A stretch of 64,000 nucleotides of DNA from Escherichia phage vB_EcoM_PTE-Eco05, in the sequence record PQ306573.1. One strand, 5' to 3'. The notes below the pieces were generated by a model. The model was not told where the DNA came from and ran no database searches. It was given only the letters and a program-made list of their open reading frames with translations. Position numbers and translations under genes: made by a program. Shown piece after piece: positions 1 to 57,274 of this stretch. Positions within the stretch are counted from its first letter, which is position 1; each line of letters starts with the position of its first letter.

Positions 1-2314
<2,314 letters not shown>

Positions 2315-2323
2315 ATTTACCTC

Positions 2324-3145
2324 TTATTGTTTTCTAGGACCAGGAGGGGTTGGTGGAGTCGGGATTGGAATATCGTGAGTATAAGTTTGTTCAACTTCAC
2401 CATTCCAATCTTGTGCTTCAACGTCTCTCGGTTTAATTTCTGTATCAACTGATTCAAAAACGCTGGCGGCTGTTTGAAGGTCTCGTTCATTAGCATGAAA
2501 ATCAAGATAAGTCGTTTTAATAAGGCCTTCTGCTGCGCCTACCGGAGGATACATCCATCCATTTACTTCAAATGTTAATGACCACTCTAAACGTCGACGG
2601 GATAAATTATCACCGTCTATTTGTTCATCCATTGCTGCTGCCATCCATACGACTTTAATATCCCTTTCAAATGGAATATCCTGCCCATATTGCTCAATCA
2701 TAGTCGTATTAAAATGCGGCTGAAAATACGGAATAATTTGCTCAACGATTTGGAACATATCATCTTCATAACGAGTAAAGATGCTCAGTTCAAAAATCAT
2801 TTTAATTGGTGATGGGTTGTATTGGTCTACAATATCCTTAGTCGATTTACTCAAAAGAGAGTTATTCAATATATTCGTTTTAAACGTTGGGTTATAAACG
2901 AAATCTACCATTTGGAGATTTATACGTGGTAGAATAGTTTCGACTTTAGCCACATCTTCTTGTGAGTTTATAGAGGTCCATTTATTAAGTTTCATCATAA
3001 AGTGCTCTTTAGATGCATACGTAATAGGAACTCTAATTAATTTATTGCCTGTAGACAATTGACGGTTAACTTGGATATTTGAAAACAAATCGCCCATCAT
3101 TGTGATATATCGCCTGAACGACGAGTTGTAAAAATAACCAAACAT
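2324..3145 (-). CDS. 15: tail sheath stabilizer / tail completion protein (gp15-like)
   Basis: ORF begins MMFGYFYNSSFRRY, matching recalled T4 gp15 N-terminus from the second Met; AGGAG spacing favours the second ATG. Confidence 0.92.
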   Translation of the reverse strand: MFGYFYNSSFRRYITMMGDLFSNIQVNRQLSTGNKLIRVPITYASKEHFMMKLNKWTSINSQEDVAKVETILPRINLQMVDFVYNPTFKTNILNNSLLSKSTKDIVDQYNPSPIKMIFELSIFTRYEDDMFQIVEQIIPYFQPHFNTTMIEQYGQDIPFERDIKVVWMAAAMDEQIDGDNLSRRRLEWSLTFEVNGWMYPPVGAAEGLIKTTYLDFHANERDLQTAASVFESVDTEIKPRDVEAQDWNGEVEQTYTHDIPIPTPPTPPGPRKQ

Positions 3146-3158
3146 CATTTCTCCTAAC

Positions 3159-3172
3159 CGGCCTTTCGACCG
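3159..3172 (-). promoter_or_regulatory. intercistronic RNA hairpin upstream of gene 15 Shine-Dalgarno
   Basis: CGGUC-GAAA-GGCCG on the minus-strand transcript, immediately 5-prime of the AGGAG for gene 15. Confidence 0.45.
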
Positions 3173-3197
3173 GTGTTTGCTTTATCTTATCTATTTA

Positions 3198-3962
3198 TTA
3201 ATTCATAAACCCATCGTCAAATGGTGAATTTTGTCTACCACGGTTGTTAACTACTACATACGGCTCAACGTATTCACTTGCCTCTGAATTGATTTGCTCA
3301 ACTTCAGAATATTCATCGATATTAATGTCATGGATACCGTCAAGATTTCTAACAGGGTTAAGTTCCAAGTCACTAAATTCAGGTATATTGATACCTTCAT
3401 TTTTCTGAAGCATCGGATTGATTTCTTCGCCAGAGTAAATAAACTTGCCTGCAGTAATTTTACGAATCGCATTTTTACCTACTTGATAGAATGGGTCATA
3501 TGGTTCAACCCAGTTAATCTCAAATAAACTGTTGTCCATTGGGAAGTATATTAAATCACCTTCCTTGGGCTCCTGATTGTTGACCTGGTGTTTGAAAAGA
3601 CCCGGGTTAATAGATAATGTAACTTCGTCTTGAACTTGCATTCCGAAGTTGCTGAAGAACGATTTCGCTCCTTCATAACCTTCAAAAGAGTTCAGATATG
3701 CAGCAAATTTCCATGCTTTAGTAAATTTATTTTTAAGGTCCTCACCAAAGATAAGGTCCACAGCAACATATTCACGTGGAACATAAAAACATTCAATACC
3801 GCGCATCTGTATGCTTTCTGCCACTAGAACATCGGCTAATGTCTGACTATTCTCATAATTATTAAAATTGACAAATTGATTGAGGATTTCGGTCTCATTT
3901 GTCTGAGAATACCCACCACGATTTTCTAGCTTGGCGAAAAGATTTTTATCATAAGTTGCCAT
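3198..3962 (-). CDS. 14: neck protein (gp14-like)
   Basis: 254-aa ORF in T4 gene-14 position and size. Confidence 0.88.
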
Positions 3963-3963
3963 A

Positions 3964-4890
3964 TTAACCTACCAAAATACCTGCAGGAGGGTCCAGTAAA
4001 TATAACTCTTCTCGTAAAGCTTCTTTCTCTAAACGAGCTTCTTCGATTAATCGAACACCATCAACAGTGACGCCACCCGGTAACATCATACCTTGATGTT
4101 TAGCAAGAATTTGCCCATTAAGCTCTTTAGCTAACGCAGTTGCATAATCTTTAACCCAGCGGTTGTTATATGCGCCTTGTTTAGTTGCAGGATCTTCACC
4201 AACTCGTCGTCCGGCCAAATTATGGTCTGGGTTGTCATACCGCTCAGAAATAGACCATGAATCACGAGGACCGACCTGTCCGTACCCTACTGTATTTCCT
4301 ACCATCTTATGGGTCTCAATATAAGAACGAACGTACGATTCAACAATAATGACATCTTTCTGTCTAAAGTTACCCATTACTTTTAATTGCTCGTTTGCGG
4401 AGTTAAACCAAAAATCTGGAAGAGGAGCAATCATATCTTGAAGCATACCCATATAAGATACTAATTGAGAATAATACCCAAGGTCAGCGCCAAAAGCGTT
4501 CGGTCCATAGAACTTACCACAATTACTACCCATGCCACCAGAAACACCTGCCATTCCTAAAAGGAAATCAGTGAACCATGGATAAGTTGCATTACCATCC
4601 ATTGAAGTAATAGAGCCAACATTTGTTCTTATAATTCTTGTTACAGCAAATACGTTAGAACCACGCATATCAAATACGCCGTGACGGTATTTTTCTTCAT
4701 CATCAACAAAAAATACATGGAAACCTTTATTCAACCCATCAAAATGGTATTCGCCATAAAGTTCTAACGCTCGTGAAATACAATCATAAATTTGGTCTGT
4801 AGTTAATTCAACATTTACAATAGGAGCGCCTAAACGACGTAATATTACGTCCTTTAATTCTTTAGGGTTTTGTGCATTATAACCTGACAT
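3964..4890 (-). CDS. 13: neck protein (gp13-like)
   Basis: 308-aa ORF in T4 gene-13 position and size. Confidence 0.88.
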
Positions 4891-4903: not shown

Positions 4904-4917
4904 GGCCCGAAGGCCCC
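4904..4917 (-). promoter_or_regulatory. intercistronic RNA hairpin between wac and gene 13
   Basis: GGGCC-UUCG-GGCCC on the minus-strand transcript, no U-run; likely stability or processing element. Confidence 0.5.
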
Positions 4918-4922
4918 TTTCA

Positions 4923-6365
4923 TTAAGCTGTAGGAAGTTCAACCCATGCACCATCTTTGCGAACATAGAATTTACCGTCTGAAGGAGCATCTTCGATATA
5001 TCCAGCCTCTTTAAGGGCCTGAATTTCTGCTTCTGCTGCAGCAAGGTCTGTTTCTAAAGTGGTAACACGCGTAGTTAAAGCCATAATTGTTGTGTCATGG
5101 TTTTTAACTGTTGGCAATATACCACGTTCTTCTATGGTTTGACCGTTTGGGTTAGTGCCGCTTATAAGTTTATTTAAACTAGTCACTTGTCCTTTAATAC
5201 CGGACGAATTAGTTCCTAATTCGGTTTGAACGTTTTGAATGTTATTGCCTAGGTCAGTAACACCAGTTTCAAGAATACGAGTCCTATATAAAAGCGAACC
5301 AGCCGGTTCAGGTTGTCCACCATTTGAATCAACGCCAACCACCTGATTAAGCCATGCTACGTTAAAACGTAAACCACTAGAAGAATCAACACCTAAAACT
5401 GTGTTAATACCTGAAATGGAATCGGTATTTAATTTGATCTTACCCTGAAGAGTAGTCGGTAAATCTGGAGAGCCTATAGTAGTTTCTAACGTTGTCAAAC
5501 GTGGTTTAATACCACCAGGCGAGTTAATGTCTGAATTTATTGTTGATATAGAAAGAAGATTGGTCTCGACTTGAGTTTTAATAGCGGTTGAATTAGGATA
5601 TCCAACAAAATCTTTTAATGCCGCAATATCTCTGGTTTGGATAGAAATGGATGAATCAATACCAGATAAACGAGTGTAAACCGGTACTGTTAACGATGGT
5701 CTAGGACCCATTTCTTGGCGGAGGTTTTCAACTTCAGTTGTCAGAGCCCCAACATCAGAATCGGCAAATTTATTTTCCAACTCGGTTAAACGAACGCCTT
5801 GGTCAACCAACACTGAGCTGTTAGTAATAATACGTCGTTTCATCCCGGTGCTTTCATTACCTTCGGTCGGGACGCCATTAATATCTTGTCCAGTATATTG
5901 CCCTAATTCGGTTTTAATCCAAAGAAGGTCGTTACGCACCGTACGATACACTGAATCTGTTTCCGGATTAACTACTCCGATATTAGCAATAGTATCATCT
6001 AGTTTTTCTTCAGTGTTTAAAATATCAACACCGTGTGAATTTACAGTATGTTTTAATACTTCAATATCATCAGTGTTATGTCCAATTTGTGCTAAAGCAT
6101 CTACGTCACCAGAAACATCCAAGATACCTTTAATTGTGGCAATATCGGCATTAGCGGTATCTAAAGATTCTGCGATAGTCTTAACGTTATCGTTAATTGT
6201 TTCCACATTTCGTTGAACTTCTGTTATTGGACGGTTCATTACTCCTTCAGAACCATATAACGTGTCAGCACCAGTTATTTCTTCTGAATTTTTAATCCAG
6301 TTTAAACGTTTTTGACCCTCGTCAGGAGGGCCATCAACATATGGTAGACTTTTTAATTCGATCAT
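4923..6365 (-). CDS. wac: fibritin (whisker antigen control)
   Basis: 480-aa ORF; repeated coiled-coil segments and C-terminal foldon-like GYIEDAPSDGKFYVRKDGAWVELPTA, close to recalled T4 fibritin. Confidence 0.94.
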   Translation of the reverse strand: MIELKSLPYVDGPPDEGQKRLNWIKNSEEITGADTLYGSEGVMNRPITEVQRNVETINDNVKTIAESLDTANADIATIKGILDVSGDVDALAQIGHNTDDIEVLKHTVNSHGVDILNTEEKLDDTIANIGVVNPETDSVYRTVRNDLLWIKTELGQYTGQDINGVPTEGNESTGMKRRIITNSSVLVDQGVRLTELENKFADSDVGALTTEVENLRQEMGPRPSLTVPVYTRLSGIDSSISIQTRDIAALKDFVGYPNSTAIKTQVETNLLSISTINSDINSPGGIKPRLTTLETTIGSPDLPTTLQGKIKLNTDSISGINTVLGVDSSSGLRFNVAWLNQVVGVDSNGGQPEPAGSLLYRTRILETGVTDLGNNIQNVQTELGTNSSGIKGQVTSLNKLISGTNPNGQTIEERGILPTVKNHDTTIMALTTRVTTLETDLAAAEAEIQALKEAGYIEDAPSDGKFYVRKDGAWVELPTA

Positions 6366-51675: not shown

Positions 51676-52007
51676 ACGATATTGATTTCGCCAAAGCATA
51701 TAAATTTGTAGCAACTCTTCTCGGCCCTGACGCTCCTACTAAGCTTGAAGTTTTAAATTCTATTCCGACTTCATTGGTTCGAGATGCTGAAATATGGACA
51801 TGGGACGACCCGGCTGTTTGTGAAGACCTGTACATTCTGATGAATGACATGATGGTTAAAAAGCCTGAAACAATGGTTACCATTACCGTTGAAGAATATA
51901 ATCGCCTGCAAGCCATTGAAGAGCTTCTGTGGAACATTGAATCGGCTTTGCCATCCGGACTAGAATCCTGGATTGATTATGAAGAGCTCAATAAGCTCCG
52001 CGGTTAA
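51672..52007 (+). CDS. hypothetical protein
   Basis: 111-aa ORF. Confidence 0.6.
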   Translation: MNDIDFAKAYKFVATLLGPDAPTKLEVLNSIPTSLVRDAEIWTWDDPAVCEDLYILMNDMMVKKPETMVTITVEEYNRLQAIEELLWNIESALPSGLESWIDYEELNKLRG

Positions 52008-52056
52008 ACCGTGGTATTCGGCTCGATGGGAGACTGTCGAGCCAGACGTCGAAACG

Positions 52057-52086
52057 GTTTACAACGACGAAGAACCATGTTATGAT
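52057..52086 (+). promoter_or_regulatory. early promoter (GTTTAC-N18-TATGAT)
   Basis: Downstream of a GGCTCGA...TCGAGCC hairpin (52020-52042). Confidence 0.5.
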
Positions 52087-52135
52087 GAACCTTCAATAAA
52101 TGAATTAATTGATATGGAAATGGGAAGAGATTATT

Positions 52136-52306
52136 ATGCAAGTTAAATTACTGTACCGTTTATTAAAAAATGGCAAACATGATTGGTATTTGCTTATTAA
52201 AACCGATCCGAATTTTTTCTCTGGACAACCATTTACAGTTCGTCCTACTAAACGTCAGCTTCGCAAAGCTAAACGTTCTCATCGTAACTTTTATAACGTT
52301 TACTAA
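52136..52306 (+). CDS. small basic protein
   Basis: 56 aa from MQVKLLYRLL. Confidence 0.5.
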   Translation: MQVKLLYRLLKNGKHDWYLLIKTDPNFFSGQPFTVRPTKRQLRKAKRSHRNFYNVY

Positions 52307-52308
52307 AT

Positions 52309-52316
52309 TATAAATA
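52309..52316 (+). promoter_or_regulatory. T4-type late promoter TATAAATA for gene 49
   Basis: Exact TATAAATA 30 bp upstream of ATG 52346; followed by CCCTTA...TAAGGG inverted repeat 52317-52339. Confidence 0.65.
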
Positions 52317-52345
52317 CCCTTATCTATTTAAGGTAAGGGTTTATC

Positions 52346-52819
52346 ATGCTATTATCAGGCGCAAAATATAAAGAAGAAAAACAAAAATTTTATGATGCAC
52401 AGAATGGTAAGTGTCCTATTTGCCGCCGTGAATTAGACCCTGATGTTCAAGGTAACCATCTTGACCACGACCACGAATTAAACGGGCCAAAAGCCGGTAG
52501 AGTTCGTGGATTACTCTGTAATCTGTGCAATGCAGCAGAAGGCCAAATGAAGCATAAGTTTAATCGTTCCGGACTTAAAGGACGTGATGTCGACTACCTC
52601 GAATGGCTTGAAGCTCTTCTTGCTTATTTGAAACAAGATTATTCTGATAATAATATCCATCCTAATTTTGTTCCAGACAAAACTAAAGAGTTCTCAAGAC
52701 TAGGTAAAGAGGAAATGATGGCTGAGATGCTTCAAAGAGGATTTGAATATAATGAATCTGATACTAAAACACAATTAATAGCTTCATTCAAAAAGCAGCT
52801 TAGAAAGAGTTTAAAATGA
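52346..52819 (+). CDS. 49: endonuclease VII (Holliday junction resolvase)
   Basis: 157 aa, MLLSGAKYKEEKQKFYDAQNGKCPICRREL...HLDHDHELNGPKAG..., close to recalled T4 gp49. Confidence 0.95.
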   Translation: MLLSGAKYKEEKQKFYDAQNGKCPICRRELDPDVQGNHLDHDHELNGPKAGRVRGLLCNLCNAAEGQMKHKFNRSGLKGRDVDYLEWLEALLAYLKQDYSDNNIHPNFVPDKTKEFSRLGKEEMMAEMLQRGFEYNESDTKTQLIASFKKQLRKSLK

Positions 52820-54633
52820 AAATTGAAAAAGAAATTGAAGGACTGATTCATAAAACTAATAAAGACCTTTTAAACGAGAATGCTAATAAAGATTCTCGTG
52901 TTTTTCCAACTCAACGGGACCTTATGGCTGGTATTGTGTCTAAGCACATTGCCAAAAATATGGTCCCGTCTTTTATTATGAATGCGCATGAAAGCGGAAT
53001 CATTCACATGCATGATATTGATTATTCTCCTGCTCTTCCATTTACTAATTGTTGTTTAGTAGATTTAAAAGGAATGCTTGAGAATGGATTTAAATTAGGC
53101 AATGCTCAAATTGAAACGCCTAAATCGATTGGTGTTGCTACTGCAATTATGGCACAAATTACTGCACAAGTTGCTTCACACCAGTATGGCGGAACTACAT
53201 TTGCGAATGTAGATAAAGTACTTTCTCCTTATGTTAAACGCACCTATGCAAAACATATTGAGGATGCAGAAAAATGGCAAATCGCTGATGCGTTGAATTA
53301 TGCTCAATCTAAAACAGAAAAAGACGTATACGATGCATTCCAAGCTTACGAATATGAAGTAAATACTCTCTTTAGTTCAAACGGGCAAACACCTTTTGTA
53401 ACAATTACATTTGGTACAGGAACTGACTGGACTGAACGAATGATTCAGAAAGCAATTCTGAAAAATCGTATTAAAGGTCTTGGTCGTGATGGGATAACTC
53501 CTATTTTTCCTAAACTTGTTATGTTTGTTGAAGAAGGTGTTAATCTTTATAAAGATGATCCGAACTATGATATTAAACAACTTGCGTTAGAATGTGCAAG
53601 CAAAAGAATGTATCCTGACATTATTTCGGTTAAGAATAATAAAGCTATTACCGGTTCTTCAGTTCCTGTTTCTCCGATGGGTTGTCGTAGTTTCTTGAGC
53701 GTATGGAAAGATTCGACTGGTAATGAAATTCTTGATGGACGTAATAATCTTGGTGTTGTAACACTGAATCTTCCTCGCATCGCGTTAGATTCTTATATTG
53801 GAACACAGTTCAATGAACAGAAATTTGTTGAGCTATTTAACGAACGAATGGACCTGTGTTTTGAAGCCTTGATGTGTAGAATTAGTTCTTTAAAGGGTGT
53901 TAAAGCTACTGTTGCTCCTATTCTTTACCAAGAAGGTGCATTCGGTGTTCGTCTTAAACCCGATGACGATATAATTGAGTTATTTAAAAACGGTAGAAGT
54001 TCAGTTTCCCTAGGATACATTGGTATTCACGAATTGAATATTCTTGTCGGTCGTGATATTGGACGAGAAATTTTGACTAAAATGAATGCTCATCTTAAAC
54101 AGTGGACTGAAAGAACTGGATTTGCTTTTAGTTTATATTCTACTCCTGCTGAAAACCTTTGTTATCGCTTCTGTAAACTTGATACAGAAAAATATGGAAG
54201 CGTAAAAGATGTTACCGATAAAGGTTGGTACACTAATAGTTTCCATGTTTCAGTAGAAGAAAATATTACTCCGTTTGAAAAGATTTCTCGTGAAGCACCA
54301 TATCATTTCATTGCGACCGGCGGTCACATTTCTTATGTTGAACTTCCTGATATGAAAAATAACTTAAAGGGCCTTGAGGCTGTATGGGATTATGCTGCAC
54401 AACATTTAGATTATTTTGGTGTTAACATGCCGGTAGATAAATGTTTTACATGTGGAAGTACCCATGAAATGTCTCCTACCGAAAACGGATTTGTTTGTTC
54501 AGTTTGTGGAGAAAGTGATCCTAAAAAGATGAACACAATAAGAAGAACATGCGGATATCTTGGAACTCCTAGCGTTGTTCCATGGAATTTAGGTAAAATG
54601 AAAGAAATGGTAAAACGAGTAAAACATGCATAG
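52816..54633 (+). CDS. nrdD: anaerobic ribonucleoside-triphosphate reductase
   Basis: 605-aa uninterrupted ORF; C-terminal zinc-ribbon Cys cluster (CFTCGS...CSVCGE) and glycyl-radical region. Confidence 0.93.
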   Translation: MKIEKEIEGLIHKTNKDLLNENANKDSRVFPTQRDLMAGIVSKHIAKNMVPSFIMNAHESGIIHMHDIDYSPALPFTNCCLVDLKGMLENGFKLGNAQIETPKSIGVATAIMAQITAQVASHQYGGTTFANVDKVLSPYVKRTYAKHIEDAEKWQIADALNYAQSKTEKDVYDAFQAYEYEVNTLFSSNGQTPFVTITFGTGTDWTERMIQKAILKNRIKGLGRDGITPIFPKLVMFVEEGVNLYKDDPNYDIKQLALECASKRMYPDIISVKNNKAITGSSVPVSPMGCRSFLSVWKDSTGNEILDGRNNLGVVTLNLPRIALDSYIGTQFNEQKFVELFNERMDLCFEALMCRISSLKGVKATVAPILYQEGAFGVRLKPDDDIIELFKNGRSSVSLGYIGIHELNILVGRDIGREILTKMNAHLKQWTERTGFAFSLYSTPAENLCYRFCKLDTEKYGSVKDVTDKGWYTNSFHVSVEENITPFEKISREAPYHFIATGGHISYVELPDMKNNLKGLEAVWDYAAQHLDYFGVNMPVDKCFTCGSTHEMSPTENGFVCSVCGESDPKKMNTIRRTCGYLGTPSVVPWNLGKMKEMVKRVKHA

Positions 54634-55456
54634 GTATTATATAATTTATAAAATAACAAATATAATTAATTCAAAGGAATATATCGGTGCTATGCGCACC
54701 GATAACATAAATGATGGTTATATGGGGTCAGGAACATTGATTCGTGCCGCTTTATTAAAATATGGTAGAAAAAATTTTAATAAAGAAATTTTACATGTTT
54801 TTGATAATGAAAAACAAATGTATGATAAAGAAGCTGAACTTGTAACCGAAGAGTATTGTCTAAAAGAAAATACATATAATATTAAACCTGGTGGAAAAGG
54901 TGGAACTGCCTATGAACAGACACTTGAACATCGCCGTAAAAATAGTTTAGCAAATAAAGGTAAAAAGAGAACAGAAGAAACTAAAATAGCTATTTCACGT
55001 GCTTTAAAGAAATATAAACGTACGCCAGAGCATCAAGCAAATTTAAATAAAGCCGTAAGCATAGCTATGAAGCGAAAAGATGTTAGAAGTAAATTAGCTG
55101 GAGAGCGGTCTGAGAAAGATAAATTATCTATATCAAACGGTGTTAAAAAATATTACAATTCTTTGAGTGAAGAAGAACGCGAACTTCATCGCAAGCGAAT
55201 TATTGAAGGTAAAAAGAATTCTCCCATGTCATTGGAATCTAGACAAAAGCTTTCAAAAGCTTTAAAAGGGCTTCAAGTTGGTTCAAAAAATCCAATGTAT
55301 GGAAAAATTTCTCCAACTAGCAAAACCGTTTCAGTTGACGGTATTAAATATGATTCAATTAAAAAGTGCTCAAATGCCATAAAAGTTTCTAGACATCTTA
55401 TACTAAAACGCTGTAATTCTACTGATGAAGCTTGGAAAAATTGGATATTATTATGA
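54626..55456 (+). CDS. free-standing GIY-YIG homing endonuclease (seg-like)
   Basis: N-terminal YIIYKITN...KEYIGAM GIY-YIG motif; repeated NUMOD3-like ETKIAISRALK / RQKLSKALKG; overlaps nrdD end and nrdG start. Confidence 0.85.
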   Translation: MHRYYIIYKITNIINSKEYIGAMRTDNINDGYMGSGTLIRAALLKYGRKNFNKEILHVFDNEKQMYDKEAELVTEEYCLKENTYNIKPGGKGGTAYEQTLEHRRKNSLANKGKKRTEETKIAISRALKKYKRTPEHQANLNKAVSIAMKRKDVRSKLAGERSEKDKLSISNGVKKYYNSLSEEERELHRKRIIEGKKNSPMSLESRQKLSKALKGLQVGSKNPMYGKISPTSKTVSVDGIKYDSIKKCSNAIKVSRHLILKRCNSTDEAWKNWILL

Positions 55457-55923
55457 ATTATGACAGAATATACCCGTGCTGCTTTGTTAATGGTCCTGGA
55501 TGCAGGACAGTTCTTTTCGTTACAGGTTGTTTGCATAAATGCGAAGGGTGTTATAATAAATCAACATGGAATGCTAGAAATGGTGTTCCATTCACTAGTG
55601 AAACACTAGAACAATTGATTGAATGTTTGAATAATGATTATATAGAAGGATTAACTATAACCGGAGGAGACCCTCTCTATCCTGATAACCGAGATGTTAT
55701 TCATCGCATTGCTCAAACAGTAAAAAATCTTTATCCCAATAAAAGCATTTGGATGTGGACAGGATATAAGTTTGAAGATATTAAACAACTAGAAATGCTT
55801 AAATATGTTGATGTTATTATTGATGGGAAGTATGAGAAAAATCTTCCGACTAAAAAGCTGTGGCGAGGATCAGATAATCAGCGACTTTGGTCAAATACCG
55901 ATGGGGTGTGGAAACATGATTAA
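55453..55923 (+). CDS. nrdG: anaerobic RNR activating enzyme
   Basis: 156 aa from MNYDRIYPCCFVNGPGCRTVLFVTGCLHKCEGC..., matches recalled T4 NrdG. Confidence 0.93.
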   Translation: MNYDRIYPCCFVNGPGCRTVLFVTGCLHKCEGCYNKSTWNARNGVPFTSETLEQLIECLNNDYIEGLTITGGDPLYPDNRDVIHRIAQTVKNLYPNKSIWMWTGYKFEDIKQLEMLKYVDVIIDGKYEKNLPTKKLWRGSDNQRLWSNTDGVWKHD

Positions 55924-56033
55924 ATTGAATTACATTATGGATACTATAAATGATATGATTTTTCGTTTTGGTCCAGAATTTTATTCGCAATATAGTTTAG
56001 TGCTTATCAATGCTTAGTTAATTAAGGGCAAAT

Positions 56034-56246
56034 ATGTATAAATTTCGTAAAGGTTTAGCTGATTTTCTTACAACTGTAACGTTCTTTTTGTTTATGGCAG
56101 TTGGAGCTATTTTTCTTATTCCTTTTACTGGTGTATTTTTCGTGATTAGTTTAATTTCTCCGGAAAAGGGTTTATCCTCCAGCGAATTCAATGAACGTTT
56201 GGACAAAATTACTAATAAACTGAATTCTGTTCTTGGCAAGGAATAA
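56034..56246 (+). CDS. small membrane protein
   Basis: 70 aa, two hydrophobic helices. Confidence 0.55.
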   Translation: MYKFRKGLADFLTTVTFFLFMAVGAIFLIPFTGVFFVISLISPEKGLSSSEFNERLDKITNKLNSVLGKE

Positions 56247-56248
56247 TT

Positions 56249-56557
56249 GTGGAACACAACAAGATTGAAATTTATGGCATCCCTGAAGAAGTTGGACGTT
56301 GTCCAGGATGTTATACTGTTACAAAACTTTTAAAGGAGCTCAATGCTCCTTATACATTTTATAAAGTCCTCACTAATAATGGTAAGATTGAATACGACCG
56401 TCCTTTAATCGTATCTCTTGCTAAACGTGCAGGATTCACTTCACTTAATATTCGTTATCCTGTCATATTTTTAAATGATAAGAAACAAAAGAATATTGCA
56501 GAGTTTAAAAAGTCCTTGATTTCATTAGGATATGACTCTGATATCATAGAAGATTGA
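56249..56557 (+). CDS. glutaredoxin/thioredoxin-fold protein (NrdH-like)
   Basis: CPGC active-site motif near N-terminus; 102 aa; next to nrdG. Confidence 0.7.
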   Translation: MEHNKIEIYGIPEEVGRCPGCYTVTKLLKELNAPYTFYKVLTNNGKIEYDRPLIVSLAKRAGFTSLNIRYPVIFLNDKKQKNIAEFKKSLISLGYDSDIIED

Positions 56558-56724
56558 CCAGGTGCCGCCTGGTCTTCTTTATCTCATTTCTAATATAATC
56601 CATTGGAATCTTCACTTCACTATCTCCTTGGGCCCCTCTCAAATAAAAAATATTTTCATAAAACAGTTTTACATCCTCAATAGATGTGTTAAGATTAACA
56701 CCATCTACCGCAGAGGAAAACAAA

Positions 56725-56973
56725 ATGATTAGTCTGAATTCGAAGAAAGTTGTTCTATCTCTTAATGTAAATAACGAACGTCCGATATTCATTACCATTT
56801 CCGATTTGAACGTTGAAATTGCTAATGGCATCCGTACTTATCAAACGTCTAAAACACATTGGGACTATATCCCGATGTTGACGCTTACTCAGCGTTTAGA
56901 AGCAATTGGCCTTAAAGACCTTTCAGTAAGTGAAGTGAATTTTATCAAACGCGTTGTATCAATCAACCTCTGA
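56725..56973 (+). CDS. hypothetical protein
   Basis: 82 aa from MISLNSKKV after AGAGGA. Confidence 0.5.
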   Translation: MISLNSKKVVLSLNVNNERPIFITISDLNVEIANGIRTYQTSKTHWDYIPMLTLTQRLEAIGLKDLSVSEVNFIKRVVSINL

Positions 56974-56980
56974 GGTAGCT

Positions 56981-57274
56981 ATGGGTAAAACATATCGTCG
57001 TAAAGATTTGAAAGTTCGCGATTATGACTATTTTGGTAAGCGTAAAGCTCCTGACGGTGTTAGCCACAAAGACATGGTTGAAAACATTTTCCGCTCAGAT
57101 AAATGGAAACGTATGAAAGGCGTTGATTCTGAAGTCAAGAATGAAATGAATCGACAACTCCGCAAAGAAGTTCGTAAGTTGAAAAAAGATGTTTACAGTA
57201 AAGAAGAGTATGATTATAATACTTCTCATACTGAAGCCAAACGTAAAGCTAACGAATGTTATCGTTACAGTTGA
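56981..57274 (+). CDS. small basic protein
   Basis: 97 aa from MGKTYRRKDLK; Lys/Arg-rich. Confidence 0.5.
   Translation: MGKTYRRKDLKVRDYDYFGKRKAPDGVSHKDMVENIFRSDKWKRMKGVDSEVKNEMNRQLRKEVRKLKKDVYSKEEYDYNTSHTEAKRKANECYRYS

What the first reader, a model, noticed from the sequence alone, without database searches (positions are those of the whole stretch)
54626..55456. Free-standing GIY-YIG homing endonuclease wedged between nrdD and nrdG
A 276-aa GIY-YIG/NUMOD3 ORF overlaps the last 8 nt of nrdD and the first 4 nt of nrdG. T4 carries its nrdD-associated endonuclease inside a group I intron; here nrdD is uninterrupted and the endonuclease is intergenic, a different mobile-element solution at the same locus.
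Basis: partly seen in the sequence, partly recalled or inferred. Interest (0 to 1): 0.45.

Follow-up and report, generated by a model that had tools for sequence, protein, structure and literature searches.

The report
Known phage homing endonuclease gene segH
The ORF between nrdD and nrdG is segH, a selfish GIY-YIG homing endonuclease gene described in T-even phages in 2005, so the finding is real but ordinary; the one unusual point is that a 5-base flip in this copy replaces a histidine that 119 of 120 relatives keep.

Summary
A 276-aa ORF at 54626-55456 (+) overlaps the nrdD stop by 8 nt and the nrdG start by 4 nt. It has a GIY-YIG N-terminal domain and a NUMOD3/helix-turn-helix DNA-binding tail.

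It is not new. It is segH: 97% aa identity to T6 SegH and 99.0% nt identity to the RB3 segH reference record. Sandegren et al. (2005) described segH as replacing mobC in several T4 relatives.

T4 carries I-TevII in the nrdD intron, but it also has a free-standing HNH gene, mobC, at this same nrdD/nrdG junction.

Comparative data fit a homing cassette:
- Most relatives have a precise empty site.
- All six segH-bearing loci inspected share a recoded last ~75 nt of nrdD.
- That tail and segH stay ~95% and 91% identical in a phage genus whose nrdD body is only 74% identical.

One point is new at allele level. A 5-nt hairpin-loop inversion (54691-54695) turns His23-Ser24 into Met-Arg. His23 is present in 119 of 120 homologues, so this copy may be crippled. 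That is untested.

Novelty: already known. Interest: low.

The parts
52816..54633 (+). nrdD, anaerobic ribonucleotide reductase large subunit, 605 aa, uninterrupted (no intron)
   Evidence: Pfam NRDD E=2.6e-171 and Gly_radical. Same length as nrdD in T6, RB18 and PhAPEC2. No Rfam intron hit.
54561..54633 (+). segH-linked recoded 3' tail of nrdD (~73 nt), starting just after the codons for the glycyl-radical motif RRTCGYLG; it is the left part of the mobile cassette and the inferred region of the SegH target or immunity polymorphism
   Evidence: Identity to the empty-site phages RB18 and PhAPEC2 falls from 92-95% to 76-77%, then to 50-56%, in the last bins of nrdD, while identity to the segH+ phages T6, moha and PD112 stays at 96-100%. 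The tail is ~95% identical in Moonvirus KM16, whose nrdD body is 74% identical. This NrdD C-terminus occurs at >=95% identity in 80 of 2361 phage records, and the next best is 74%.
54626..55456 (+). segH ORF, 276 aa, free-standing GIY-YIG homing endonuclease
   Evidence: 97% aa identity to T6 SegH. 99.0% nt identity to RB3 segH AY262138 and 99.4% to phage moha. PHROG 314 E=8e-58.
54626..54904 (+). GIY-YIG catalytic domain (aa 1-93): IIY8, Y19-I-G21, E69/E71, Y84-N85
   Evidence: A profile of the homologues hits the I-TevI catalytic domain 1MK0 over residues 4-92, E=0.008. hhalign probability 93%. The AF2 model (pLDDT 93-98 over this domain) matches 1MK0 with Foldseek probability 1.00 and TM 0.65.
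54682..54704 (.). perfect 9-bp inverted repeat TATCGGTGC/GCACCGATA with a 5-nt loop at 54691-54695. The loop reads TATGC here and GCATA in the five other copies inspected (T6, RB3, moha, KM16, PD112), an exact reverse complement. The result is His23-Ser24 to Met23-Arg24.
   Evidence: The best full-length match in the phage collection is 99.4% and a 57-nt probe across the site found no exact match. His23 is present in 119 of 120 homologues.
55223..55309 (+). NUMOD3 DNA-binding motif (aa 200-228), the best-scoring unit of a long helical, NUMOD3-like linker (aa ~98-228)
   Evidence: PF07460, 33.8 bits against a cut-off of 20.4. The AF2 model is helical over 100-213.
55301..55444 (+). C-terminal helix-turn-helix DNA-binding domain of the I-TevI type (aa 226-273)
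   Evidence: PF20987 I-TevI_DNA-bd E=3e-4, below Pfam's cut-off. Foldseek hit to 1I3J, the I-TevI DNA-binding domain on DNA, probability 0.99.
55453..55923 (+). nrdG, class III RNR activase, 156 aa, start coupled to the segH stop by ATGA
   Evidence: Pfam Fer4_12 E=5.6e-49. The same ATGA coupling joins nrdD to nrdG directly in empty-site phages.
55464..55509 (+). segH-linked variant tract in the 5' end of nrdG, the variable right edge of the cassette
   Evidence: The first 50 nt are 100% identical to T6 but 78-80% identical to moha (segH+, empty-type nrdG 5' end) and to RB18 and PhAPEC2 (empty site). The tract is partly shared with KM16.

Best explanation
This is segH, a free-standing GIY-YIG homing endonuclease gene of T-even-type phages.

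The mobile unit is a cassette of about 0.9 kb. It consists of a recoded last ~73 nt of nrdD, then segH, and in most copies the first ~35-57 nt of nrdG. It sits in what is otherwise a tight nrdD-ATGA-nrdG junction.

Inferred mechanism, by analogy with characterised Seg enzymes and I-TevI: the gene has no promoter of its own and is transcribed with nrdD and nrdG. It is translated at a low level by re-initiation at the 8-nt overlap with the nrdD stop. In a mixed infection the protein binds DNA of a phage lacking segH through its NUMOD3/helix-turn-helix tail. Its GIY-YIG domain cuts near the nrdD 3' end / nrdG 5' end. Recombinational repair from the segH+ genome then copies segH and the adjoining recoded flanks into the recipient. 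The recoded nrdD tail keeps NrdD at 605 aa and changes the DNA that an empty site presents, which probably reduces self-cleavage.

This particular copy differs from every other copy examined. A 5-nt hairpin-loop inversion replaces the subfamily-invariant His23 (and Ser24) with Met-Arg. I consider it more likely than not, about 55%, that this weakens or abolishes nuclease activity. If so, this is a homing gene at the start of its decay phase. The intact reading frame is still useful, because nrdG translation is coupled to the segH stop codon.

Shown: identity with segH, position, domain content, presence/absence polymorphism, cassette boundaries, horizontal spread, and the inversion. Inferred: cleavage site, expression mode, and the effect of His23Met.
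For: - Identity: 269/276 aa identical to T6 SegH; 6-16 nt differences from moha, RB3 and T6 segH; GenBank AY262137/8/9 annotate this gene as segH in T6, RB3 and LZ2; the homologue in phage KM16 is named SegH.
[quoted passage not shown] - Fold and domains.
- Mobile-element behaviour: 72 of 828 records matching the locus carry segH, and most of the others show a contiguous nrdD-nrdG. The empty site is precise in RB18 and PhAPEC2. There is a sharp segH-linked divergent tract. In KM16 segH is 91% and the nrdD tail ~95% identical, against 74% for the nrdD body and 71.5% for nrdG.
- The gene occurs in Tequatrovirus, Mosigvirus and Moonvirus.
- dN/dS is 0.18 between KM16 and the other alleles, so the protein has been under purifying selection.
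- A 47%-identical homologue also sits directly after an nrdD gene.
- Decay stages elsewhere: an in-frame 588-nt deletion in phage PD112.
- No late promoter (TATAAATA) and no sigma-70-like match upstream of segH; the nearest late-promoter match is before gene 49.
- Inversion and His23. The AF2 model puts residue 23 in strand beta2 (residues 18-25), in register with Tyr19 and Gly21.
Against: - No cleavage or homing data exist for this allele, and the primary SegH paper could not be read here. The cleavage site is therefore my inference.
- The I-TevI Arg27/His31 helix has no aligned counterpart in any SegH-subfamily member. Which residues complete the active site is unknown, and the role of His23 is argued only from conservation and strand register.
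- Phage moha carries segH together with an empty-type nrdG 5' end. The right flank therefore cannot be essential for immunity.
- The Met-Arg allele is seen in only one other assembly, and that contig is identical to the window over 7950 nt. It is not an independent observation.
Confidence: 0.9

Rival explanations
1. The gene is segH and this allele is fully active. His23 is conserved for a reason that Met tolerates, or the new Arg24 compensates.
For: The ORF is intact, and every canonical GIY-YIG residue that aligns with I-TevI is retained: Tyr8, Tyr19, Gly21, Glu69/71 and Asn85. Apart from the inversion, only 1 nt differs from the moha allele, so the change is recent and there are no further signs of decay.
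Against: His23 is present in 119 of 120 homologues that are only 33-63% identical overall, the same level of conservation as the catalytic tyrosines. It lies in strand beta2 in register with Tyr19. It sits exactly where the subfamily lacks the Arg27 helix of I-TevI.
Confidence: 0.35
2. The 5-nt inversion is not biological. It is an artefact of sequencing or assembly at a 9-bp inverted repeat, and the real phage carries the ordinary segH.
For: The change is confined to the loop of a perfect hairpin. It is found only in this window and in one Logan contig that is 100% identical to it, which is probably the same data.
Against: The whole 23-nt palindrome is shorter than the k-mers assemblers normally use, so an assembly graph would not be ambiguous there (my reasoning, not tested). 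An exact reverse complement of 5 nt is the expected product of template switching in a hairpin and is not a typical base-calling error.
Confidence: 0.1
3. The ORF is retained for a host-phage function rather than as a selfish nuclease, for example as the translational coupler for nrdG or as a DNA-binding regulator, as I-TevI is an autorepressor.
For: The nrdG ATG overlaps the segH stop, as it overlaps the nrdD stop in empty sites. The PD112 deletion derivative keeps the frame and the ATGA overlap. The DNA-binding tail is intact.
Against: Most relatives manage without the gene. Its patchy distribution and cross-genus transfer with flanks are the signature of a selfish element. The purifying selection also acts on the nuclease domain.
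Confidence: 0.08
4. It is an intron-encoded or intein-type endonuclease, or the remnant of a group I intron like the T4 nrdD intron.
For: Distant similarity to I-TevII, 30% over 128 aa, E=4e-6.
Against: nrdD is one continuous 605-aa ORF. There is no group I intron hit in 52000-57000 even at E<=1. The ORF lies between two genes and overlaps both.
Confidence: 0.01

Closest known systems
SegH of phages T6, RB3 and LZ2 (Sandegren, Nord & Sjoberg 2005, Nucleic Acids Res 33:6203; GenBank AY262137-AY262139)
   Same: Same gene: 276 aa, 97% aa and 98-99% nt identity. Same position, with the same 8-nt and 4-nt overlaps with nrdD and nrdG, and the same recoded nrdD tail.
   Different: The genomic background is Mosigvirus-like rather than Tequatrovirus. 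A 5-nt loop inversion gives Met23-Arg24 in place of His23-Ser24.
T4 MobC, the free-standing HNH endonuclease gene between nrdD and nrdG
   Same: Occupies the same junction, is promoterless, and overlaps its neighbours.
   Different: Unrelated catalytic family (HNH, PF01844). T4 keeps the empty-type nrdD tail, and mobC starts with a copy of the first codons of nrdG. No activity has been shown for it (Table 1 of PMC2988022).
I-TevI, the T4 td intron endonuclease (PDB 1MK0, 1LN0, 1I3J)
   Same: Two-part architecture: an N-terminal GIY-YIG domain, a linker, and a C-terminal helix-turn-helix. Both ends of the AF2 model hit the I-TevI structures.
   Different: SegH is free-standing, not intron-encoded. 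The nine residues of I-TevI that carry Arg27 and His31 are absent from the SegH subfamily. The linker is longer and built of NUMOD3-like repeats.
I-TevII, the T4 nrdD intron endonuclease
   Same: GIY-YIG family and associated with nrdD.
   Different: Only 30% identity over 128 aa. It is intron-encoded and lies in the middle of nrdD, and nrdD here has no intron.
Characterised T4 Seg enzymes (SegA, B, C, E, F, G): intronless homing with co-conversion of flanks
   Same: Free-standing GIY-YIG genes between conserved genes, with flanking marker co-conversion, promoterless or overlapping arrangements, and a target in an adjacent essential or conserved gene (PMC2988022).
   Different: Different loci and target genes. 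The SegH cleavage site was not available to me.

Membership tests
GIY-YIG nuclease superfamily (homing endonuclease branch) | GIY...YIG pair of beta-strands with both tyrosines and the glycine | tested here: met
   I-I-Y8 ... Y19-I-G21, with 10 residues between the triplets. Tyr8, Tyr19 and Gly21 are present in 120 of 120 homologues and in this copy. They align to I-TevI Y6, Y17 and G19. AF2 strands are at 4-12 and 18-25.
GIY-YIG nuclease superfamily (homing endonuclease branch) | Metal-binding Glu on the helix after strand 3 (I-TevI Glu75) and the C-terminal Asn (Asn90) | tested here: met
   Glu69 (120/120) and Glu71 (116/120) flank the column aligned to Glu75. Tyr84-Asn85 (120/120) aligns to Tyr89-Asn90.
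GIY-YIG nuclease superfamily (homing endonuclease branch) | Catalytic Arg on helix alpha1 (I-TevI Arg27) | tested here: inconclusive
   HMMER and hhalign both leave I-TevI residues 24-32 (FEKRWKRHF) unaligned against the SegH subfamily. AF2 predicts one helix (37-46) between strands 2 and 3, not two. Possible substitutes are His23, Lys/Thr37, Arg/Lys40 and Lys45. This is a property of the whole subfamily, including the published SegH.
GIY-YIG nuclease superfamily (homing endonuclease branch) | Fold of the catalytic domain | tested here: met
   Foldseek against the PDB: 1MK0 probability 1.00, TM (target) 0.65; 1LN0 probability 1.00. Query pLDDT is 93-98 in residues 1-90.
GIY-YIG nuclease superfamily (homing endonuclease branch) | C-terminal NUMOD / helix-turn-helix DNA-binding module | tested here: met
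   NUMOD3 is above Pfam's cut-off. I-TevI_DNA-bd has E=3e-4, below the cut-off. 1I3J is hit with probability 0.99.
SegH subfamily (SegH/SegD-like short GIY-YIG domain) | Subfamily-invariant loop motif G-x-H-x-T ... D-x-Y-x-G-S-G after YIG | tested here: not met
   Thr25, Asp30, Tyr32 and Gly34-Ser35-Gly36 are present. His23 (119/120 homologues; present in the five other segH copies inspected) is Met here.
segH orthologue (Sandegren et al. 2005) | Sequence identity to the reference segH genes | tested here: met
   99.0% nt to AY262138 (RB3), 98.1% nt to AY262137 (T6), 97% aa to T6 SegH.
segH orthologue (Sandegren et al. 2005) | Location between nrdD and nrdG, in place of T4 mobC | tested here: met
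segH orthologue (Sandegren et al. 2005) | Site-specific DNA cleavage and homing in mixed infection | not testable with these tools
   This needs enzyme assays and phage crosses. The primary paper was not available.
Free-standing homing endonuclease gene (behavioural definition) | Presence/absence polymorphism with a precise empty site in close relatives | tested here: met
   RB18 and PhAPEC2 have nrdD TGA overlapping the nrdG ATG. 72 of 828 records that match the locus carry segH.
Free-standing homing endonuclease gene (behavioural definition) | Co-transfer of flanking sequence and phylogenetic incongruence with the host genome | tested here: met
   segH 91% and the nrdD tail ~95% identical, against 74% for the nrdD body in KM16.
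Group I intron-encoded endonuclease (as T4 I-TevII) | ORF lies within a self-splicing intron that interrupts the host gene | tested here: not met
   nrdD is a continuous 605-aa ORF. No intron family matches at E<=1 in 52000-57000.

The most novel reading that the evidence does not exclude
The Met23-Arg24 allele is a natural knock-out, or conceivably a reversible off-state, of SegH. A single template-switch inversion of the 5-nt loop of a 9-bp hairpin would have created it, and that hairpin exists only because the codons for the conserved I-G-A and S-T-D residues are mutually complementary. If so, His23 would be an essential active-site residue standing in for the missing Arg27/His31 helix in the short SegH/SegD-type GIY-YIG domain. 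Hairpin-loop inversion would also be a documented first step in the decay of a phage homing endonuclease gene.
Probability: 0.4. Interest if true: 0.3.

Novelty: already known. Interest (0 to 1): 0.15.

Why it matters
As a gene, it matters little. segH at the nrdD/nrdG junction has been in the literature since 2005, is annotated in dozens of phage genomes, and is a textbook case of intronless homing.

The comparative picture assembled here is a tidy illustration of how such cassettes travel:
- a precise empty site in most relatives;
- a recoded nrdD tail that travels only with segH;
- spread across three genera;
- at least three unrelated endonuclease genes using the same junction;
- decayed copies.

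The only point that could teach something new is the allele-specific loss of His23 by a hairpin-loop inversion. If that residue is catalytic, it would say how the short Seg-type GIY-YIG domain works without the canonical arginine helix.

Tried and rejected
- The primary SegH paper could not be read by DOI or by PMC id. Six other papers that mention SegH do so only in their reference lists. The published cleavage site is therefore not cited, and anything I say about it is inference or marked as memory.
- A single-sequence search of the PDB gave only chance hits. A profile of homologues was needed to reach I-TevI.
- The canonical Pfam GIY-YIG model (PF01541) does not hit this protein directly. 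Only the SegE-type model hits, and below threshold. Many homologues do carry PF01541.
- I looked for an endonuclease-specific late promoter (TATAAATA) or a sigma-70-like promoter upstream of segH and found none.
- I looked for a group I intron and found none.
- I looked for further SegH-type GIY-YIG genes in the window, using a profile against all six-frame ORFs. Only this one was found.
- I considered that the hairpin might be a functional RNA or terminator element, as in mobE. The stem is much weaker in the 47%-identical homologue, and no T-run follows it on the coding strand. It looks like a by-product of the conserved codons.
- I considered the Logan contig as independent support for the Met-Arg allele and rejected it. 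It is identical to the window over all 7950 nt.
- I did not fetch the T4 SegA-G sequences to check the His23 column in enzymes with demonstrated activity.
Full report
**1. Observation.**
The sequence shows ...AAA CAT GCA TAG for the end of nrdD, with the new ORF's ATG inside it. That gives the 8-nt overlap, ATGCATAG. At the other end the sequence reads ...TTA TTA TGA, with the nrdG ATG one base before the TGA, giving the 4-nt ATGA overlap. The ORF lister starts nrdG at an upstream TTG. The annotated start in T6, RB3 and RB18 is the ATG at 55453. The neighbours are NrdD (605 aa, PF13597 E=2.6e-171, with the glycyl-radical domain) and NrdG (PF13353 E=5.6e-49). Upstream lies endonuclease VII (gene 49) and downstream an NrdH-like glutaredoxin. 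The window is therefore a T-even-type phage.

**2. What the ORF is.**
- Pfam finds NUMOD3 above threshold. It also finds sub-threshold matches to the I-TevI DNA-binding domain and to the SegE-type GIY-YIG domain.
- PHROGs gives 'homing endonuclease', E=8e-58.
- megablast against 50,697 phage records finds the same gene in 72 records at 91-99.4% identity. Among them are three short GenBank entries, AY262137 (T6), AY262138 (RB3) and AY262139 (LZ2), annotated 'segH: SegH', with nrdD and nrdG on either side.
- The protein is 269/276 identical to T6 SegH.
- Some genome records label the gene segD or mobC by similarity, or 'hypothetical'.
- In the literature, the review of T4 mobile elements lists mobC as a free-standing HNH gene at nrdG/nrdD. 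[quoted passage not shown] A 2022 preprint says the same in plain words (10.1101/2022.08.31.505936).
- The primary paper is not held in the library. From memory only: it reported that SegH cleaves DNA and homes in mixed infections.

The finding is therefore an already described gene.

**3. The comparison with T4.**
The T4 record shows nrdD split by the intron that carries I-TevII. It also shows mobC (210 aa, HNH) between nrdD and nrdG.

The junction is a hot spot with at least three unrelated occupants:
- segH (GIY-YIG);
- T4 mobC (HNH);
- a 279-aa HNH protein in Yersinia phage PST, which is only 38% identical to MobC over 60 aa.

SegH is only distantly related to I-TevII, at 30% over 128 aa. 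No intron RNA family is detectable in 52000-57000.

**4. Insertion site and cassette boundaries.**
A 1000-nt query made of the two flanks joined together matches 828 records. In most of them the flanks are contiguous: 1008 nt in the record for 1000 nt of query. In segH phages they are 1831 nt apart, and in T4-type phages 1630 nt apart.

In the empty-site phages RB18 (Tequatrovirus) and PhAPEC2 (Mosigvirus, the genus nearest to this window), nrdD ends ...ATC ATG CAT AGG GTT AAG CAC CAA TGA and its TGA overlaps the nrdG ATG.

In all six segH-bearing loci inspected, nrdD is still 605 aa but its last ~73 nt are different DNA. The C-terminus reads GTPSVVPWNLGKMKEMVKRVKHA instead of GNPNERGFNLGKNKEIMHRVKHQ. 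The shared residues R-V-K-H are written in different codons. The break in similarity is sharp and falls just after the codons for the glycyl-radical motif RRTCGYLG. Identity of the window to RB18 and PhAPEC2 is 92-95% in the bin before it, then 76-77%, then 50-56%. Identity to T6, moha and PD112 stays at 96-100%.

This NrdD tail is found at >=95% identity in 80 phage records, about the number that carry segH. The next best match is 74%.

On the right side, the first ~57 nt of nrdG are also of a segH-linked type in the window, T6 and RB3, and partly in KM16. In phage moha they are of the empty type. The minimal cassette is therefore about 54561-55452.

One curiosity: the first nine bases of segH, ATGCATAGG (M-H-R), are the same nine bases that encode M-H-R near the end of nrdD in the empty site. 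This may mark the original junction. I did not pursue it.

**5. Evidence that it behaves as a mobile element.**
- segH occurs in three genera: Tequatrovirus (T6, RB3), Mosigvirus (moha, this window) and Moonvirus (KM16).
- Against KM16, the nrdD body is 74% and nrdG 71.5% identical to the window, while segH is 91% and the last 75 nt of nrdD about 95%. That is horizontal transfer of the cassette together with its left flank.
- dN/dS for segH is 0.18 between KM16 and the other alleles, so the protein has been under selection. It is about 0.3 among the close alleles.
- A 47%-identical homologue in a 175-kb contig lies directly after an nrdD gene, although nrdG there is 2 kb away. This fits a target in the nrdD 3' end.
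- Decayed copies exist. PD112 has an in-frame 588-nt deletion, leaving an 80-aa ORF that still ends in the ATGA overlap with nrdG. Two other records annotate two ORFs at the locus (not examined).

**6. Protein anatomy.**
An AF2 model built on 31 homologues has mean pLDDT 84.8, with 93-98 in residues 1-90. Its secondary structure is beta(4-12), beta(18-25), helix(37-46), beta(51-59), helix(62-72), then a long helical region (100-213) and a small beta/helix-turn-helix end (235-273). Foldseek against the PDB returns only four meaningful hits. Three are the I-TevI catalytic domain (1MK0 and the two chains of 1LN0; probability 1.00, TM 0.61-0.65). One is the I-TevI DNA-binding domain on DNA (1I3J; probability 0.99).

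A profile of the homologues aligns to I-TevI residues 4-92, and hhalign agrees. Conserved in 120 of 120 homologues are Tyr8, Tyr19, Gly21, Tyr32, Gly34-Ser35-Gly36, Phe51, Glu69 and Tyr84-Asn85. His23, Thr25 and Asp30 are conserved in 119 of 120. The counterparts of I-TevI Tyr6, Tyr17, Gly19, Glu75 (Glu69 or Glu71) and Asn90 are present.

The nine I-TevI residues FEKRWKRHF, which carry Arg27 and His31, have no counterpart in any member of this subfamily. The model has one helix where I-TevI has two. How this short Seg-type domain completes its active site is not known to me. The candidates are His23 and the conserved basic residues at positions 37, 40 and 45.

**7. The allele-specific change.**
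Compared with moha, RB3 and T6, the window has five consecutive differences at segH nt 66-70 (window 54691-54695): TATGC instead of GCATA. These are exact reverse complements. They form the loop of a perfect 9-bp inverted repeat, TATCGGTGC/GCACCGATA, at 54682-54704. This is a hairpin-loop inversion, the expected product of a template switch within a palindrome. KM16 and PD112 also have GCATA.

The effect is His23-Ser24 to Met23-Arg24, with no frameshift. No record in the phage collection has it. The exact protein exists once in the 15-billion-protein collection, on a Logan contig from run SRR12795745. That contig is identical to the window at all 7950 positions, so it is the same phage and not independent support.

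His23 lies in strand beta2, two residues after Gly21. By strand alternation it is on the same face as Tyr19, and the invariant residues 19, 21, 23 and 25 alternate with variable or core residues. It sits at the point where the subfamily lacks the Arg27 helix.

I therefore judge loss or reduction of nuclease activity somewhat more likely than not, at about 55%. This rests on conservation and geometry, not on a test. The stem is weaker in the 47%-identical homologue. I read the hairpin as a by-product of conserved codons rather than a functional element.

**8. Expression (inferred).**
There is no TATAAATA late promoter and no sigma-70-like match upstream of segH. The nearest late-promoter match is at 52309-52316, before gene 49. 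Only a weak GAG lies 6-7 nt before the segH ATG. segH is therefore most likely read from the nrdD transcript and translated by re-initiation at the overlap. The review describes this for several T4 free-standing endonuclease genes. nrdG is coupled to the segH stop in the same way it is coupled to the nrdD stop in empty sites. This gives a reason for the frame to stay open even in a dead copy, and PD112 shows this.

**9. Verdict.**
The ORF is a free-standing GIY-YIG homing endonuclease gene, but it is the published segH, and T4 has its own free-standing gene at the same junction.
- Novelty: already known.
- Interest: low (0.15).
- The only item worth a bench test is whether the hairpin-loop inversion that removed His23 has inactivated this copy.

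Noticed in passing
window 54682-54704 (loop 54691-54695): Perfect 9-bp inverted repeat inside segH. Its 5-nt loop is inverted relative to the five other segH copies inspected, changing the near-invariant His23-Ser24 to Met-Arg. The same allele occurs only on Logan contig SRR12795745_598, which is identical to the window over 7950 nt.
   Followed up: yes
L007 (Escherichia phage vB_vPM_PD112) 2001-2243; corresponds to window 54626-54757 joined to 55346-55456: Decayed segH: an in-frame 588-nt internal deletion leaves an 80-aa ORF that keeps the start overlap with nrdD and the ATGA overlap with nrdG. Phages FL18 and sutha annotate two 'homing endonuclease' ORFs at this locus, possibly frameshifted copies.
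   Followed up: partly
L004 (Yersinia phage PST) 2005-2844; L002 (T4) 4907-5539 minus strand: A third, different endonuclease gene uses the same nrdD/nrdG junction: a 279-aa HNH protein only 38% identical to T4 MobC over 60 aa, in a phage that also has the I-TevII intron. Both it and T4 mobC begin with a duplicated copy of the first codons of nrdG (MNYDR).
   Followed up: partly
window 54626-54634 versus L003 (RB18) about 1987-1995: The first nine bases of segH (ATGCATAGG, M-H-R) are identical to nine bases encoding M-H-R near the end of nrdD in empty-site phages, in a different reading frame relative to nrdD. This may be a relic of the original insertion junction.
   Followed up: no
L010 (ENA ERZ28812121 NODE_69, 175-kb contig) 1831-4828: A SegH homologue (47% identity) lies directly downstream of a 705-aa nrdD with an ATP-cone, while nrdG is 2 kb further on. 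A second SegE-type GIY-YIG gene (359 aa) lies just upstream of that nrdD.
   Followed up: no
L013 (Salmonella phage KM16, Moonvirus) 188-3322: segH (91% nt) and the last 75 nt of nrdD (~95%) are far more similar to the window than the rest of nrdD (74%) or nrdG (71.5%). The cassette has crossed genus boundaries.
   Followed up: yes
window 52007-52346: There is no homologue of pin (inhibitor of the host Lon protease) anywhere in the window by tblastn, although T4, T6 and PhAPEC2 have it just upstream of gene 49. A 56-aa DUF7279 ORF (52136-52306) occupies that position here.
   Followed up: partly
window 52309-52316: T4-type late promoter consensus TATAAATA lies 30 nt upstream of gene 49 (endonuclease VII). 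It is the only such match within several kb of segH.
   Followed up: no
window 56556-56574: GC-rich palindromic hairpin (GACCAGGTGCCGCCTGGTC) right after the nrdH-like gene, scoring as terminator-like on both strands. PhAPEC2 has an annotated putative terminator adjoining the 3' end of its nrdH-like gene.
   Followed up: no
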